Part shown: piece by piece, positions 7,488-12,196 of the stretch
How positions within the stretch are numbered: the first letter of the stretch is position 1
Layout: every line of letters begins with the position of its first letter
Source of the DNA: Candidatus Odinarchaeia archaeon
GTDB taxonomy: Archaea > Asgardarchaeota > Odinarchaeia > Odinarchaeales > Odinarchaeaceae
Reading direction: 5' to 3'
NCBI GenBank assembly: GCA_029856525.1
Contig: JAHQXC010000034.1
Coordinates: 1-12,839 of the forward strand
DNA length: 12,839 nt
Notes under the pieces: generated by a model
What the model was told of the DNA's origin: nothing
The model's database searches: none
What the model saw: only the letters and a program-made list of their open reading frames with translations
Translations under genes and position numbers: made by a program

Positions 7488-8147
7488 TTAGAATAATATT
7501 ATTGAGATAACGGTTAAAGCGATTAACGCTATAATTAGATTCCATGCTAGAATCGCTGTTAAAAGCTGTTTTCGGGATTCTTTGATAATATCTGAAAACT
7601 CAAGTATCAATTCTGCGCTAATATGATTTGAAATAGGTTTCTCTTCTCTAAGATTTTTTAAAGCTAGTTTAAGTATTTCACGGCTTGTTAAAGTGGTTTT
7701 AAAATCTAGTTCAACAGGTTTACCCTCTTCAACTCGGTATAATGATAGTGTTCTATTATCTAAATCCTGTTTTTTCCAGTATTCTAGGGGATCGATCACT
7801 AATGCTACAGCTTGAGGGAAAAGCCTCTGATACACGGTTTGAGTTTTAACATCTATTTGAGACATGAAATCCGCGCCCATACCAGGGTGAGTGTGAAACC
7901 AGCCGCAGATGATTTCACCAGGCTTATATTTTGCAAGTTCGTTTACAACTTCAATTAAAACATCCGCGTCTAATTTAACCGATATTCTAGACGACTCTTG
8001 AACAGGGATATTCACGTCTTTTATAATTAATCTGTCTTCTTCTAAAATCCCTGTTAAATAGCCGGCTGCTTCTTTCTGTAAGCTGCTTGTAGCCTCGATT
8101 ATTTTTAATACTACCGATGGATCTATTAATACGTTCAATTCTATCAA
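7488..8147 (-). CDS. MPN+/JAMM metalloprotease (Rpn11/CSN5-like) with C-terminal transmembrane anchor
   Basis: Catalytic Glu in KEAAGYLTG, JAMM motif GWFHTHPGMGADFMSQID, followed by VKTQ and AVALVIDP as in Rpn11-type proteins. The last 25 aa (7491-7565) are hydrophobic. Start is TTG at 8147 or TTG at 8138; the latter has AGGTTGATAGAA upstream. Confidence 0.9.
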   Translation of the reverse strand: MIELNVLIDPSVVLKIIEATSSLQKEAAGYLTGILEEDRLIIKDVNIPVQESSRISVKLDADVLIEVVNELAKYKPGEIICGWFHTHPGMGADFMSQIDVKTQTVYQRLFPQAVALVIDPLEYWKKQDLDNRTLSLYRVEEGKPVELDFKTTLTSREILKLALKNLREEKPISNHISAELILEFSDIIKESRKQLLTAILAWNLIIALIALTVISIILF

Positions 8148-8157
8148 CCTATAGAAT

Positions 8158-8928
8158 TTATTCTATAAGGTATCTCCCCGGGTTTGCGTTTATTTCCTTT
8201 ACCACGTTTTCAAATTCTTTCAAAACCTCGGTTATAAAATTCGGTGGAGATGTATCTGTGATCTCGATTGTTTTTTCAACAATAACCCAATCTTCAAGAT
8301 TACTCGCAGATTTTAACGGCTTCAAGTATTTTTCATCAGCTCGAAGAAGATTCATATTATTTTTAAACACATCTTTTTTTATAAAATCCACTAGGCTAGA
8401 AAATATTTTACGGTAGCCGCCGGATAGCAGAAATCTAGCTATTTCAGCAGGAGATAAAGCTCTCACAGATATTTTAAACTCTTCTTCCTCCTCATCTAAT
8501 ATTAAAGGGATCGACCCCTTAGGTTTAATCTCACCTATTTTTCTTTCAAATAAAGCTTGACCTCTCTTCCTAATCACTCTTCGAATTTTAGTTATAATCT
8601 GCTCGGTATCAGCGTTACCGTAAGGGTCGATTATATCCGGGTTCATTAAATCTATTAACGGTATTTCCATGTTGGGTCTAAGCTCTGTAGCGTCTAATAT
8701 CACTGCGATTACAGGCTCCATTATGTTAACAGGATGTTCTTTAATAACCCCCTTACCGGCTAAAACACCCGGGCCTATAAACATTGAACGAGCTTCATTA
8801 TTTCTAAGAATAGTCCATAATTGCTCTGAGATTACTAGTAGCTTGCCTTGAAAGTCGAGTTTACCATAGCTTAAAGATAAACCTGGGATTAGAGAATCTA
8901 CCAGCCATATTAAAGGCGGCATGCTCAC
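8158..8928 (-). CDS. Hypothetical protein, possible divergent longin-like N-terminal domain
   Basis: 256-aa ORF whose GTG start overlaps the upstream TGA (GTGA overlap at 8925-8928; alternative ATG at 8922). It ends 10 nt before the JAMM gene. Fold assignment is by secondary-structure pattern only. Confidence 0.8.
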   Translation of the reverse strand: MSMPPLIWLVDSLIPGLSLSYGKLDFQGKLLVISEQLWTILRNNEARSMFIGPGVLAGKGVIKEHPVNIMEPVIAVILDATELRPNMEIPLIDLMNPDIIDPYGNADTEQIITKIRRVIRKRGQALFERKIGEIKPKGSIPLILDEEEEEFKISVRALSPAEIARFLLSGGYRKIFSSLVDFIKKDVFKNNMNLLRADEKYLKPLKSASNLEDWVIVEKTIEITDTSPPNFITEVLKEFENVVKEINANPGRYLIE

Positions 8929-10175
8929 TCACTATGCTCGTTGATTAAATGTTTCATAAAATATTCTGAGATTTTTTTAATTACGTGTTCGCGTGGAAGA
9001 GGTTGTTTAATATTTAAATAATCGTATAATTCTTTTTCAGAAACCTGGGGTGGAATACTCGCCGATGCCTGTTTATTATAATCTGCATAGATTACTTCAG
9101 CAAGCTGAGTTCTATTCAGCGGATGATGGTTGAAGCGCTTTAATATTTCGGTTATCATAGTGTAGGCTACTTCAAGCGGATTAGCTATTTCATAATTCAT
9201 GTTTTTAAAAACTTTAGTCACTGTTTTCAACAGAAAATCTTGGCGTTCAAGTTCAGGTCTCTTTCTAGCAAGGATTATATCACGTTCTAAAAAGTCTATA
9301 GGTGATTTAAGATCAGGGCCGATAAGCCCGTTACGGGTTACAGGCGCGTGAATGATAAGTATATTAGAAGAAGCTGCCGCGTTTAACTCAGGTTTTACCC
9401 TAGGAATAGCTTGAAGGAGAACATGAGCTAGTGTACTTGGAGGCATCTCTTTTAATGGTTTAAGAAGGCTTCTACGTATCTCGATGATCTGAATTTTAGT
9501 TTGAACACCTCCCTCTTCAATATTTATTTTCTCGGTTAAAACATCTAAGTTGAAGAAAAACATTTTAGCCGAGTTAACCGCGGCGATTAAGATTTTATAC
9601 GCATCCCTTGGATCTGCTTTTATGATAGGGGAGAGGAGGGCTGTTGCAGCGTGAATTTGATTTAAATTATCGTGTTCCTTAATCCATTTCTCAATGAGAG
9701 GAATTATATAATTATCTATTAAATTAATTCTCGAGTTAAGTAAATCTGCGATCTTCTCTAGCGGCGGAGCGGCGTCGGATTCTATTGAAAGCTCGGTGTT
9801 TATTAAAGGTCGAAGTTTATCTTCAAGTATATACTTGAATTTACCGTAAAGGAATTGAAGCCACGCCCCCTCTCTGGCCGCGAAGTTGAACATGTAAGTG
9901 GGGGTTTCAGGGATTGGGGTCCCAGCTTCTTCATATATCTTCATTAGCCAGGTAAGGTAATTATAGGTTTGATTGGGGTTTAGCTTATTCTCCAGCTCTA
10001 AAATATAGATTACTTTACATAAATCTGTGTTTAATTTGAACTCTTCTATTATTTCAGCTATTTGGGTTAGATTTACTCTGGAAAGTCTCTCCTTGAAATC
10101 GTATTTTTTCTCAAATTCGGCGGCAAGTTCCCTAGCTAACGTGTATTTTGTGTGCGAGGGGGTTTCAAATTGCAT
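8925..10175 (-). CDS. Hypothetical, predominantly alpha-helical protein
   Basis: 416-aa ORF with ATG preceded by AAGTGATAAT and its own TATA/BRE; coupled to the next gene. No family recognised, and no signal peptide or TM seen. Confidence 0.85.
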   Translation of the reverse strand: MQFETPSHTKYTLARELAAEFEKKYDFKERLSRVNLTQIAEIIEEFKLNTDLCKVIYILELENKLNPNQTYNYLTWLMKIYEEAGTPIPETPTYMFNFAAREGAWLQFLYGKFKYILEDKLRPLINTELSIESDAAPPLEKIADLLNSRINLIDNYIIPLIEKWIKEHDNLNQIHAATALLSPIIKADPRDAYKILIAAVNSAKMFFFNLDVLTEKINIEEGGVQTKIQIIEIRRSLLKPLKEMPPSTLAHVLLQAIPRVKPELNAAASSNILIIHAPVTRNGLIGPDLKSPIDFLERDIILARKRPELERQDFLLKTVTKVFKNMNYEIANPLEVAYTMITEILKRFNHHPLNRTQLAEVIYADYNKQASASIPPQVSEKELYDYLNIKQPLPREHVIKKISEYFMKHLINEHSE

Positions 10176-11608: not shown

Positions 11609-12196
11609 TTAACGGATAAGCTTCGGCTTACACCGCTGTTTTTTCAAAGCATCTACAAGCTGGTTAACGTTATCAATTCTATCAAGAAATTCAGTGCAAC
11701 ACCATCCGAACTCTGAAATATTATGCGCATCCGACCCGGCTGTAGCGGAAACATGCTTTTTTAAAGCTATTGTTAAAGCGTTTTCATCTATTTTAAATCT
11801 GGATCTATCCGAGACTTCAACACCATCCACATCTAGATCATAGACTCTCTCGCCTAGTTTAACAGGCCAAGACCTGAACGGGTGAGCTGCAACCACGGCA
11901 CCACCCTCACGGTGAACTGCTTCAATAATTATTTTAGCCGGTGTATAAGGTTGAAAAACATTATTTAAACCGTATATTAACAGTTCACCTTCTAAAACTG
12001 TTAGTTCATAGCCTAGAAAAACGGTTAAACCGTGTTTTTCAGCTTTTCTAAGCTCCTCGCTAAAATCCCCGATAACATTATGATCTGTTAAAACTACGCC
12101 GTCTAGACCATATGAGGGGGCTAATTCAAGTATCTCTGTTAAAGTTAACTCGGAGCAAGGGGAAATCTGAGAGTGAACGTGTAAATCTATTAGAAA
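11609..12196 (-). CDS. PHP-family metal-dependent phosphoesterase; start codon unresolved
   Basis: The frame of track ORF 11609..11896 stays open up to 12199. It adds (EF)LIDLHVHSQISPCS...GLDGVVLTDHN...GYE upstream of AAHPFR and AGSDAH, the characteristic PHP motif series. No ATG/GTG/TTG occurs between the in-frame TAA at 12202-12200 and 11896. Confidence 0.85.
   Translation of the reverse strand, partial: FLIDLHVHSQISPCSELTLTEILELAPSYGLDGVVLTDHNVIGDFSEELRKAEKHGLTVFLGYELTVLEGELLIYGLNNVFQPYTPAKIIIEAVHREGGAVVAAHPFRSWPVKLGERVYDLDVDGVEVSDRSRFKIDENALTIALKKHVSATAGSDAHNISEFGWCCTEFLDRIDNVNQLVDALKKQRCKPKLIR

What the first reader, a model, noticed from the sequence alone, without database searches (positions are those of the whole stretch)
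7488..8147. Tail-anchored Rpn11/CSN5-like JAMM isopeptidase
Seen: a complete JAMM catalytic set (Glu in KEAAG; H-x-H...S-x-x-D) and eukaryote-type flanks (ISVK, DVKTQ, AVALVIDP, versus Rpn11 VSVE, DVNTQ, AVAVVVDP as recalled). A 25-aa hydrophobic helix, LLTAILAWNLIIALIALTVISIILF, ends at the stop codon, and there is no signal peptide. Established: characterised JAMM enzymes (Rpn11, CSN5, AMSH, BRCC36, archaeal HvJAMM1) are soluble; AMSH reaches endosomes via ESCRT partners. Inference: a deubiquitinase-like enzyme hard-wired to the membrane with its catalytic domain in the cytoplasm, editing ubiquitin-like marks on membrane proteins. I know of no described example.
Basis: partly seen in the sequence, partly recalled or inferred. 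Interest (0 to 1): 0.8.

Follow-up and report, generated by a model that had tools for sequence, protein, structure and literature searches.

The report
Membrane-anchored Rpn11-like deubiquitinase, Odinarchaeon
This Asgard (Odin) archaeon's only ubiquitin-removing protease of the Rpn11 type ends in a conserved membrane anchor, so its ubiquitin is probably matured and removed at the inner face of the cell membrane; I found no paper describing this layout.

Summary
Its closest solved relatives are CsRpn11 of Caldiarchaeum, then Rpn11 and CSN5. All catalytic residues are present (E26, H85-x-H87-x8-S96-x2-D99). A 26-residue, charge-free hydrophobic helix runs to the stop codon.

The tail is not an artefact. 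It is kept in every Odinarchaeial orthologue down to 35% identity, including a one-contig genome. It is also kept in Jord-, Baldr-, Freya- and Heimdall-type Asgard relatives: 23 of the 25 nearest 50%-identity clusters are tail-anchored.

This is the only JAB-domain gene found in four Odinarchaeum genomes. The Ub/E2/E1/RING operon lies elsewhere, and Odin ubiquitins carry 0-10 variable residues after RTEGG.

In 301 Asgard genomes this JAMM type tracks E2 family by family. It does not track the two orphan genes it is co-transcribed with.

Best reading: a tail-anchored pro-ubiquitin-processing and deubiquitinating enzyme facing the cytoplasm. It is not an Rpn11 orthologue or lid subunit.

I found no paper describing it. 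This scan has already noted the same design in other Asgard genomes. Verdict: a new variant of a known kind; activity and localisation are untested.

The parts
7488..8147 (-). Whole gene: tail-anchored Rpn11-like JAMM/MPN+ metalloprotease, 219 aa, TTG start, TAA stop at 7488-7490
   Evidence: ORF list and translation; Pfam JAB 55.1 bits against a cut-off of 22.5; 74-77% identical orthologues in other Odinarchaeum assemblies
7695..8147 (-). MPN/JAMM catalytic domain, residues 1-151
   Evidence: AF2 model pLDDT 93-98 over this range. Foldseek top hits are Rpn11 5u4p_B (TMt 0.83), CsRpn11 6fnn_A (TMt 0.87, 35% identity) and CSN5. phmmer against PDB: 6FJU/6FJV E 7e-21
8070..8072 (-). Codon of the catalytic Glu26 (..LQKEAAGY..)
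   Evidence: Aligned to the Glu of CsRpn11 ..LQREVAG..; at least 90% conserved in 70 relatives and invariant in the 21 closest
7851..7895 (-). Zinc-binding motif H85-T-H87-PGMGADFM-S96-QI-D99 (H-x-H-x8-S-x2-D)
   Evidence: Read directly from the sequence. H85, H87, S96 and D99 are invariant in 70 relatives. The extra residue relative to CsRpn11 and Rpn11 is seen and is shared by the tail-anchored family
7617..7685 (-). Post-MPN helix (residues 155-168) and flexible linker (169-177)
   Evidence: AF2 secondary structure; pLDDT falls to about 61 in the linker. CsRpn11 has soluble helices H4/H5 at this position (PMC6043591)
7569..7616 (-). Juxtamembrane helix, residues 178-193, ending in the basic ESRKQ stretch
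   Evidence: Continuous with the TM helix in the AF2 model. E190 and R192 are invariant in Odin orthologues
7491..7568 (-). C-terminal transmembrane anchor, residues 194-219 (LLTAILAWNLIIALIALTVISIILF), ending at the stop
   Evidence: Hydropathy scan. Conserved in all orthologues with invariant L196, I199, L200, W202, N203. The same architecture is seen in Jord, Baldr, Freya and Heimdall relatives
8158..8928 (-). Upstream orphan gene 'F256' (256 aa), 10 nt before the JAMM start; probably co-transcribed
   Evidence: No Pfam or PDB match. Syntenic with the JAMM in Odin, Jord and Freya, and with one gene in between in Baldr and a further lineage. Also present in Asgard families where neither this JAMM type nor E2 was found
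8925..10175 (-). Orphan gene 'F416' (416 aa), overlapping F256 by 4 nt; first gene of the probable unit
   Evidence: No Pfam or PDB match. Always adjacent to F256 in the loci examined

Best explanation
The gene encodes an active zinc isopeptidase of the archaeal Rpn11-like (CsRpn11) kind. A single C-terminal transmembrane helix fixes it to the cytoplasmic membrane, with the catalytic domain in the cytoplasm.

Shown here:
- MPN+ fold with a complete catalytic set.
- Tail-anchor architecture: the one TM lies in the last 26 residues, nothing follows it, basic residues precede it, and there is no signal peptide.
- Conservation of that architecture across Asgard classes.
- It is the only JAB-domain gene found in four Odinarchaeum genomes.
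- A Ub-E2-E1-RING operon lies elsewhere in the genome, and its ubiquitin ends RTEGG plus 0-10 variable residues.
- This JAMM type and E2 are found in the same Asgard families.

Inferred:
- The enzyme cuts after the Gly-Gly of Odin pro-ubiquitin and removes ubiquitin from conjugates, as CsRpn11 does in vitro.
- Because it is tethered, both reactions take place close to the inner membrane face. A roughly 16-residue stalk helix plus a 9-residue flexible linker would hold the domain about 5 nm from it (my estimate from the model).
- This would bias ubiquitin turnover towards membrane-proximal substrates.
- Insertion is probably post-translational, through the ArsA/Get3 homologue present in the genome.
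- Co-transcription with the two orphan genes F416 and F256 suggests a lineage-specific partnership. It is not required for the enzyme's core role.
For: Fold and family:
- Pfam JAB E 8e-15.
- PDB sequence hits: CsRpn11 6FJU E 7e-21, then Rpn11, AMSH/Sst2 and CSN5.
- AF2 pLDDT 93.9. Foldseek finds Rpn11, CsRpn11 and CSN5 at E 1e-13 to 1e-15.
- Catalytic residues invariant.

Anchor:
- Hydropathy 2.65 with no charges; a long terminal helix in the model.
- Kept in 7 of 7 Odin homologues.
- 23 of the 25 best and 43 of 155 representative clusters are tail-anchored.
- Named members come from Odinarchaeia, Baldrarchaeia and Heimdallarchaeum.
- In GTDB representative genomes all Odin, Baldr, Freya and Heimdall hits and 4 of 6 Jord hits are tail-anchored, whereas Aigarchaeota/Nitrososphaerota hits are not.
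- On the tree the tail-anchor label needs only one change.

Link to ubiquitin:
- Sole JAB/Prok-JAB hit in the own genome and in 3 congeners, including a one-contig genome.
- No OTU or USP hit.
- Ub, E2, E1 and a RING protein lie on contig C72.
- Odin ubiquitins have variable extensions after RTEGG in 4 of 5 genomes.
- By family code in 301 Asgard genomes, this JAMM type and E2 are both found in 22 families, neither is found in 6 (including f6, 0/76 for both), and 2 are mixed (f20: E2 in 1 of 7 genomes and no JAMM; f24: JAMM but no E2).
- CsRpn11 cleaves pro-ubiquitin and ubiquitin conjugates in vitro (PMC6043591, PMC5654768).
- Membrane-spanning JAMM forms in Bathyarchaeia and Thermoplasmata sit beside E2 and E1 genes.

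Insertion route: an ArsA/Get3 homologue scores 315 bits over the full length.
Against: - No experiment: activity, substrate, zinc binding and localisation are all inferred.
- The H-x-H to Ser spacing is x8, not x7. The effect on catalysis is unknown, though the spacing is conserved across the family.
- The gene is not next to the ubiquitin operon. In the one-contig relative the two lie hundreds of kb apart, unlike the Caldiarchaeum arrangement.
- The own genome is 93% complete, so a second peptidase could be missing there (the one-contig congener argues against this). Only the OTU and USP families of cysteine deubiquitinases were searched, and the OTU search had no positive control.
- The family-level co-distribution with E2 counts related genomes and used a profile that also detects non-anchored JAMMs.
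- TM prediction rests on hydropathy and AF2. No dedicated topology predictor was available.
Confidence: 0.7

Rival explanations
1. The JAMM is chiefly the catalytic, membrane-anchoring subunit of a complex with the co-transcribed orphan proteins F416 and F256 (and in Odin perhaps F361 and F137). It would act on a substrate of that module, not on free or conjugated ubiquitin in general.
For: - The gene order F416-F256-JAMM, with a 4-nt overlap and a 10-nt gap, is kept in Odin, Jord and Freya. It is kept with one inserted gene in Baldr and a further lineage.
- In these Asgard loci the JAMM does not sit next to the ubiquitin operon, whereas the soluble Aigarchaeal form does.
Against: - The F256 family is in 74 of 76 genomes of family f6, where neither this JAMM type nor E2 was found. 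The JAMM is present in many families without F256: f4 29/29, f9 57/68, f14, f21, f27.
- Family f13 has F416-F256-F361-F137 with no JAMM between them.
- Heimdall tail-anchored JAMMs have unrelated neighbours.
- Jord has a second, stand-alone tail-anchored paralogue.
- So the pairing is lineage-specific and the JAMM tracks E2 instead.
Confidence: 0.12
2. It is a desampylase-type enzyme. It would remove or mature ThiS/MoaD-like small modifiers activated by the other ThiF-type E1-like proteins (as HvJAMM1 does in Haloferax), not the eukaryote-like ubiquitin.
For: - The genome has three strong ThiF-family hits, and only one of them is in the Ub operon.
- As the only JAMM found, this enzyme would have to serve any such system too.
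- There is a weak Prok-JAB match, E 4e-4.
Against: - The best sequence and fold matches are CsRpn11, Rpn11 and CSN5, not JAMM1-type proteins.
- The Pfam JAB score is far above the Prok-JAB score.
- It tracks E2, which SAMP-type systems lack.
- The two roles are not mutually exclusive.
Confidence: 0.08
3. The hydrophobic C-terminus is not a membrane anchor. It would be a hydrophobic oligomerisation or partner-binding helix, as the C-terminal helices of Rpn11 and CSN5 join a helical bundle, and the protein would be soluble in a complex.
For: - Rpn11 and CSN5 use C-terminal helices for assembly (PMC6043591).
- A conserved W-N pair inside the helix could mediate helix-helix contacts.
Against: - There are 26 consecutive uncharged, mostly I/L/V/A/F residues with mean hydropathy 2.65, far beyond an amphipathic bundle helix.
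- The sequence varies freely between lineages while length, position at the extreme C-terminus and hydrophobicity are kept. This is the pattern of a lipid-facing TM.
- Related forms continue after the same helix into large PKD-type ectodomains.
- No second MPN protein or lid-like partner was found in the genome.
Confidence: 0.05

Closest known systems
CsRpn11, the Rpn11 homologue of Candidatus Caldiarchaeum subterraneum (PDB 6FJU, 6FJV, 6FNN, 6FNO; Fuchs et al. 2018, PMC6043591; Hennell James et al. 2017, PMC5654768)
   Same: - Best sequence match (E 7e-21, 32-36% identity) and among the best fold matches.
- Same MPN+ core and catalytic residues, and similar overall length (202 against 219 aa).
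- Same side of the 95%-supported split in the MPN tree.
- Comes from a genome with a Ub/E2/E1/small-RING operon whose ubiquitin needs C-terminal trimming.
   Different: - CsRpn11 is soluble and monomeric, with C-terminal helices H4/H5 instead of a TM helix.
- Its gene sits divergently next to the ubiquitin operon, whereas this one lies far from it, behind two orphan genes.
- The HxH-to-Ser spacing is x7 in CsRpn11 and x8 here.
Eukaryotic Rpn11/PSMD14 and CSN5 (MPN+ subunits of the proteasome lid and the COP9 signalosome)
   Same: MPN+ fold, the JAMM motif and similar flanking motifs (GW.H.HPG, D..TQ, AVA.V.DP). Foldseek E 1e-12 to 1e-15.
   Different: - Those enzymes are soluble. They pair with an MPN- partner (Rpn8, CSN6) and are built into PCI complexes through extra N- and C-terminal helices.
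- Here there is no second MPN gene, and the C-terminus is a membrane anchor.
- Three eukaryotic MPN proteins group away from this family in the tree.
AMSH/STAMBP and yeast/fission-yeast Sst2 (endosomal JAMM deubiquitinases)
   Same: JAMM enzymes that work at a membrane surface on ubiquitinated cargo and are active on their own. They hit the query at E 3e-9 to 1e-6.
   Different: AMSH reaches the membrane through protein partners (ESCRT-0/ESCRT-III, general knowledge). It has no transmembrane segment and is more distant in sequence than CsRpn11 or Rpn11.
USP19 and USP30 (C- or N-terminally membrane-anchored deubiquitinases of eukaryotes; general knowledge, not tested here)
   Same: The same logic: a deubiquitinase fixed to a membrane by one TM helix, with its catalytic domain in the cytosol.
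   Different: They are cysteine proteases of the USP family and unrelated in fold. No USP-family hit was found in this genome.
JAMM proteins with a mid-chain TM helix and a large C-terminal ectodomain in Bathyarchaeia and Thermoplasmata (unnamed; P0065, P0084, P0109, L054, L055)
   Same: N-terminal JAMM domain followed by one TM helix at about residues 180-215. Same side of the tree split. They are linked to E2/E1 genes.
   Different: They continue into 200-550 residues outside the membrane (PKD-type repeats by one source's name), whereas the Odin protein stops at the end of the helix.

Membership tests
JAMM/MPN+ metalloproteases (Pfam JAB, PF01398) | Match to the family model above the curated threshold | tested here: met
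   55.1 bits against a cut-off of 22.5, E 8.3e-15, covering profile positions 5-116 of 117
JAMM/MPN+ metalloproteases (Pfam JAB, PF01398) | MPN fold | tested here: met
   AF2 pLDDT 93.9. Foldseek probability 1.00 to Rpn11, CsRpn11, CSN5 and BRCC36
JAMM/MPN+ metalloproteases (Pfam JAB, PF01398) | Catalytic motif E...H-x-H-x7-S-x2-D | tested here: met
   E26, H85, H87, S96 and D99 are present and conserved. The spacing is x8, a one-residue insertion shared by the tail-anchored family
JAMM/MPN+ metalloproteases (Pfam JAB, PF01398) | Zn-dependent isopeptidase activity | not testable with these tools
   Needs an enzyme assay
CsRpn11-like archaeal Rpn11 homologues (Caldiarchaeum/Asgard JAMM group of Fuchs et al. 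2018) | Closest sequence relatives are CsRpn11-type proteins | tested here: met
   6FJU/6FJV are the top PDB hits at E 7e-21. It groups with Caldarchaeum and Aigarchaeota sequences behind a 95% SH-aLRT branch
CsRpn11-like archaeal Rpn11 homologues (Caldiarchaeum/Asgard JAMM group of Fuchs et al. 2018) | Gene adjacent to the Ub-E2-E1-RING operon | tested here: not met
   The Ub operon is on another contig (C72). In the one-contig congener the JAMM is at 0.23 Mb and Ub/E2 at 1.06 Mb. Aigarchaeal homologues do have the adjacency
CsRpn11-like archaeal Rpn11 homologues (Caldiarchaeum/Asgard JAMM group of Fuchs et al. 2018) | Soluble protein with C-terminal helices H4/H5 | tested here: not met
   The C-terminus is a 26-residue TM helix. 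CsRpn11 is described as monomeric in solution
Eukaryotic Rpn11 (proteasome lid subunit) | MPN- partner (Rpn8-like) and lid/PCI context | tested here: not met
   Only one JAB or Prok-JAB hit in the own genome and in three congeners
Eukaryotic Rpn11 (proteasome lid subunit) | Extra N-terminal helix and C-terminal helices that join the lid helical bundle | tested here: not met
   Alignments to Rpn11 cover only query residues 10-125, starting at Rpn11 residue 31. The C-terminus here is a TM anchor
Eukaryotic Rpn11 (proteasome lid subunit) | Groups with eukaryotic Rpn11 in a tree | tested here: inconclusive
   Three nematode MPN proteins fall on the other side of a 95% branch. However, the tree is quick, uses 149 columns and is unrooted, and verified Rpn11, CSN5 and AMSH sequences could not be brought in
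Tail-anchored membrane proteins (class defined by topology) | Single TM helix within about the last 30 residues, at most a few residues after it, and no N-terminal signal sequence | tested here: met
   The only hydrophobic segment is residues 193-219 of 219; terminal helix in the AF2 model
Tail-anchored membrane proteins (class defined by topology) | Post-translational insertion (Get3/ArsA-type or other route) and actual membrane residence | not testable with these tools
   An ArsA/Get3 homologue is present (315 bits), but that family rings in all 14 control genomes, so its presence is only permissive

The most novel reading that the evidence does not exclude
In Asgard archaea the ubiquitin cycle is membrane-centred. 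The ancestral Asgard Rpn11-like enzyme was tail-anchored, so ubiquitin maturation and removal happen on the inner membrane face. This would make it a functional forerunner of ESCRT-coupled deubiquitination (AMSH/Doa4-like logic) and not of the proteasome lid. In some classes it has recruited two orphan proteins (F416, F256) into a new membrane module. The soluble TACK-type homologues may reach the membrane too, through a short cationic amphipathic C-terminal helix.
Probability: 0.3. Interest if true: 0.8.

Novelty: new variant of a known kind. Interest (0 to 1): 0.62.

Why it matters

Published work has treated the Asgard and Caldiarchaeum Rpn11-like proteins by their catalytic core only. The main cluster analysis cut off the termini (PMC6043591), and the Asgard ubiquitin-ESCRT survey only counted JAB domains (PMC9192718).

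If the only deubiquitinase of an Odinarchaeon is fixed in the membrane, then where ubiquitin is matured and removed is constrained in a way not considered so far. The enzyme also gives a simple handle, one small protein with a known soluble relative, for testing whether archaeal ubiquitin signalling is tied to the membrane.

Tried and rejected
- Structure of the upstream 256-aa protein: the AF2 model had mean pLDDT 42 and was unusable, so no fold search was made.
- Test of F256 as a hidden MPN- partner: hhalign against the JAMM profile gave probability 1.4%. Rejected at sequence level.
- Families for F416, F256 and F361. Pfam per-member scans, PDB profile searches and the protein atlas gave nothing for F416 and F256. 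F361 gave only weak winged-helix hits. A search for longer, fused forms of F256 found none, which is weak evidence.
- Complex prediction of F416 + F256 + JAMM(1-176): no verdict, score 0.00. It says nothing either way.
- Heimdall neighbours of the tail-anchored JAMM compared with the F416 and F256 profiles: no similarity.
- The search for related loci with the 70-sequence alignment failed for lack of a conserved stretch. It was repeated with 21 sequences.
- Full phylogeny against named Rpn11, CSN5 and AMSH: not possible because verified reference sequences could not be brought into the tree. Three eukaryotic (nematode) MPN proteins from the search were used instead.
- Frameshift or assembly artefact for the tail: rejected.
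- Pseudoenzyme: rejected because all catalytic residues are invariant.
- Literature searches for a described membrane-anchored JAMM in archaea: eight searches, none relevant.
Full report
**The gene.** The window (GC about 38%) carries an archaeal-type S-adenosylmethionine synthetase. Its gene order matches Candidatus Odinarchaeum yellowstonii LCB_4 throughout, and the assembly it belongs to is 1.32 Mb in 127 contigs, 93% complete. The finding's ORF is real: 7488-8147 on the minus strand, 219 aa, TTG start 10 nt after the stop of the preceding ORF. Orthologues begin at the same position.

**Fold and catalytic site.**
- Pfam JAB matches at E 8e-15, 55 bits against a threshold of 22.5.
- Against PDB sequences the best hits are the Rpn11 homologue of Caldiarchaeum subterraneum (6FJU/6FJV, E 7e-21). 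They are followed by yeast and human Rpn11 (about 1e-11 to 1e-10), Sst2/AMSH (about 1e-9 to 1e-6) and CSN5 (about 1e-8).
- An AlphaFold model built on 70 relatives has mean pLDDT 93.9. Foldseek returns Rpn11, CsRpn11 and CSN5 at E 1e-13 to 1e-15.
- E26, H85, H87, S96 and D99 are invariant or nearly so in the 70-sequence alignment.
The extra residue (GMGAxFMS) is shared by the closest relatives.

**The tail.**
- Residues 194-219 contain no charged residue and have a Kyte-Doolittle mean of 2.65 over 19 residues. They are preceded by ESRKQ and end at the stop codon. No other hydrophobic segment exists in the protein.
- AlphaFold draws a helix at 155-168, a loose linker at 169-177 (pLDDT about 61) and one long helix at 178-218.
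- This is the architecture of a tail-anchored protein with a cytoplasmic N-terminal domain.

**The tail is conserved, not an artefact.**
- All seven homologues at 40-100% identity, from independent assemblies including the finished LCB_4 chromosome, keep the tail with an invariant I-L-x-W-N core. Between close orthologues the tail shows both synonymous changes and hydrophobic-for-hydrophobic replacements.
- In an exhaustive search of 1.8 billion cluster representatives, 23 of the 25 best hits and 43 of the 155 examined are tail-anchored. A further 21 have one TM helix (in most at about residue 180-215) followed by a large C-terminal domain.
- Named members are from Odinarchaeia, Baldrarchaeia and Heimdallarchaeum.
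- Among 80 loci from GTDB representative genomes, the Odin, Baldr, Freya and Heimdall hits and four of six Jord hits are tail-anchored. One Bathyarchaeia hit, one uncultured-archaeon hit and one from a MAG labelled Candidatus Deferrimicrobium (a bacterial label) are also tail-anchored.
- By contrast, all complete Aigarchaeota, Nitrososphaerota and Thermoproteota hits (the CsRpn11 type) lack a TM.
- In a quick maximum-likelihood tree of the MPN core (149 columns), a 95% SH-aLRT branch separates two groups. One holds the tail-anchored forms, the Caldarchaeum-type soluble forms and the Bathy/Thermoplasmata membrane-spanning forms. The other holds three eukaryotic MPN proteins, long soluble Asgard JAMMs and Chloroflexi sequences.
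- The tail-anchor label needs only one change on that tree, at support 76. This is compatible with a single origin of the anchor, but the tree is short and unrooted.

**Link to ubiquitin.**
- The own genome has a classic archaeal ubiquitin operon on another contig: a UEV/E2-like fragment, a coiled-coil protein, an 81-aa RING protein, ubiquitin, E2, and an E1 with a C-terminal Ubl.
- The JAMM of the finding is the only JAB or Prok-JAB hit in this genome and in three congeners, one of them a single contig. No OTU or USP hit was found, although the OTU search had no positive control.
- In five Odinarchaeial genomes (four of the genus and one of a sister genus in the same order) ubiquitin keeps RTEGG and then carries 0, 2, 4, 10 or 10 unrelated residues. 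Most of these ubiquitins therefore need C-terminal trimming, the reaction CsRpn11 performs in vitro (PMC5654768, PMC6043591).
- In a sample of 301 Asgard genomes, this JAMM profile (E <= 1e-20) and E2 (PF00179) go together by family code. Both are found in 22 families and neither in 6, including the large family f6 (0/76 for each). Two families are mixed: f20 has E2 in 1 of 7 genomes and no JAMM, and f24 (one genome, 85% complete) has the JAMM but no E2.
- Related genomes are not independent, and the profile also detects non-anchored forms, so this is supportive and not conclusive.

**Surroundings.**
- Upstream, and probably co-transcribed, are two orphan genes: F416 (8925-10175) and F256 (8158-8928). 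They overlap by 4 nt, and F256 ends 10 nt before the JAMM start.
- Downstream there is a 97-nt AT-rich gap with a TATA-like element. It is followed by a 361-aa protein (weak winged-helix matches), a 137-aa protein and a 1551-aa surface protein.
- The trio F416-F256-JAMM is kept in Odin, Jord and Freya. It is kept with one inserted gene in Baldr and one further lineage.
- The soluble Aigarchaeal homologues instead sit divergently beside Ub-E2-E1-RING.
- The pairing is not obligatory. F256 occurs in 116 of 301 genomes, including f6 (74/76), where neither this JAMM type nor E2 was found. Family f13 has F416-F256-F361-F137 with no JAMM between them.
- Heimdall forms have unrelated neighbours, and Jord has a second, stand-alone tail-anchored paralogue.
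- I therefore read the orphan pair as a lineage-specific associate, not as the enzyme's defining context. Their folds remain unknown.

**Mechanism proposed.** The enzyme is an active MPN+ isopeptidase held within a few nanometres of the inner membrane face by a tail anchor. It trims pro-ubiquitin after Gly-Gly and removes ubiquitin from conjugates. Insertion may use the ArsA/Get3 homologue present in the genome. The fold, motif, anchor, conservation, uniqueness in the genome and presence of a ubiquitin that needs trimming are shown. Activity, substrate and localisation are inferred.

**Comparison with what is known.**
- It works like CsRpn11 but fails two features of that group as described: solubility and adjacency to the ubiquitin operon.
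- It is not a lid-type Rpn11. There is no MPN- partner and no lid helices, and it groups away from the eukaryotic sequences available.
- Membrane-anchored deubiquitinases are known in eukaryotes only in the unrelated USP family (general knowledge). AMSH reaches membranes through partners.
- The Fuchs et al. cluster analysis removed everything outside the JAMM core. The Asgard ubiquitin-ESCRT survey only counted JAB domains. My searches of the held paper library found no description of a membrane-anchored JAMM. The library misses most subscription journals, so absence is not proven.

**Earlier notes of this scan.** They describe the same tail-anchored enzyme in several other Asgard genomes, and the F416/F256/JAMM cassette in another Odinarchaeon. 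My results agree with them on the enzyme. They differ on the cassette by showing that the orphan pair occurs widely without the JAMM, while the JAMM tracks E2.

**Verdict.** This is a new variant of a known kind, of real interest for the origin of eukaryotic ubiquitin signalling, but untested at the bench.

Noticed in passing
L008 (own genome, contig C72) 894-2846; L119-L122: A complete archaeal ubiquitin operon (small RING, Ub, E2, E1 with a C-terminal Ubl, plus a UEV/E2-like fragment and a coiled-coil gene on the other strand). Odin ubiquitins keep RTEGG but are followed by 0, 2, 4 or 10 unrelated residues in different genomes. The own copy has a second GG inside the extension (RTEGGKPDTRGGSVL).
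   Followed up: partly
L031, L033, L036, L039, L041, L042, L045-L052 (Aigarchaeota/Nitrososphaerota homologues): The soluble CsRpn11-type homologues end in a short cationic amphipathic stretch (for example ..KFFSKTKKLL.., ..FERAKKILRN..). Its hydrophobic moment is 0.6-0.8 and its net charge +1 to +5, values reached by 0.3-14% of shuffles. This could be a peripheral membrane-binding helix. In the CsRpn11 crystal structure residues 174-202 were not resolved.
   Followed up: partly
L054, L055, L066, L075; P0065, P0084, P0109: Bathyarchaeia and Thermoplasmata have JAMM proteins with an N-terminal catalytic domain, one TM helix at about residue 180-215 and a 200-550-residue C-terminal domain (PKD repeats by one source's name). 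In L054 and L055 they lie next to E2- and E1-like genes.
   Followed up: partly
window 8158-10175; L105-L118: The orphan pair F416-F256 is a widespread, single-copy, always-adjacent Asgard gene pair: F256 is in 116 of 301 sampled genomes. It includes a large family (f6, 74/76) where no E2 and no JAMM of this type were found. No known family or fold was found for either protein.
   Followed up: partly
L110, L111 (Asgard family f13): The order F416-F256-F361-F137 is kept without a JAMM gene. A short F361-like piece lies where the JAMM sits in Odin. The JAMM-type hit of these genomes is short (145-172 aa open frames) and lies about 150 kb from F256, close to an E2 gene.
   Followed up: no
window 5876-7390 and 828-5483: The 361-aa protein (weak winged-helix hits at residues about 257-340), the 137-aa protein and the 1551-aa surface protein with one TM and a roughly 200-aa cytoplasmic tail follow the JAMM in all Odin loci seen. 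A TATA-like element lies in the 97-nt gap after the JAMM stop.
   Followed up: partly
window 11609-11896: The PHP_C-only ORF is 95 aa here, whereas the syntenic gene in LCB_4 is 189 aa with PHP plus PHP_C domains. This may be a different start, a frameshift or a truncation in this assembly.
   Followed up: no
L024, L026, L104 against L025, L029 (Jordarchaeia): Jordarchaeia carry two tail-anchored JAMM paralogues: one behind F416-F256 and one standing alone among unrelated genes.
   Followed up: no
L011 18169-18810; L016 11868-12443; L018 8778-9467; L109 9647-9997: A Roadblock/LC7 gene lies within a few kb of the tail-anchored JAMM in Odin, Baldr and a further Asgard lineage.
   Followed up: no
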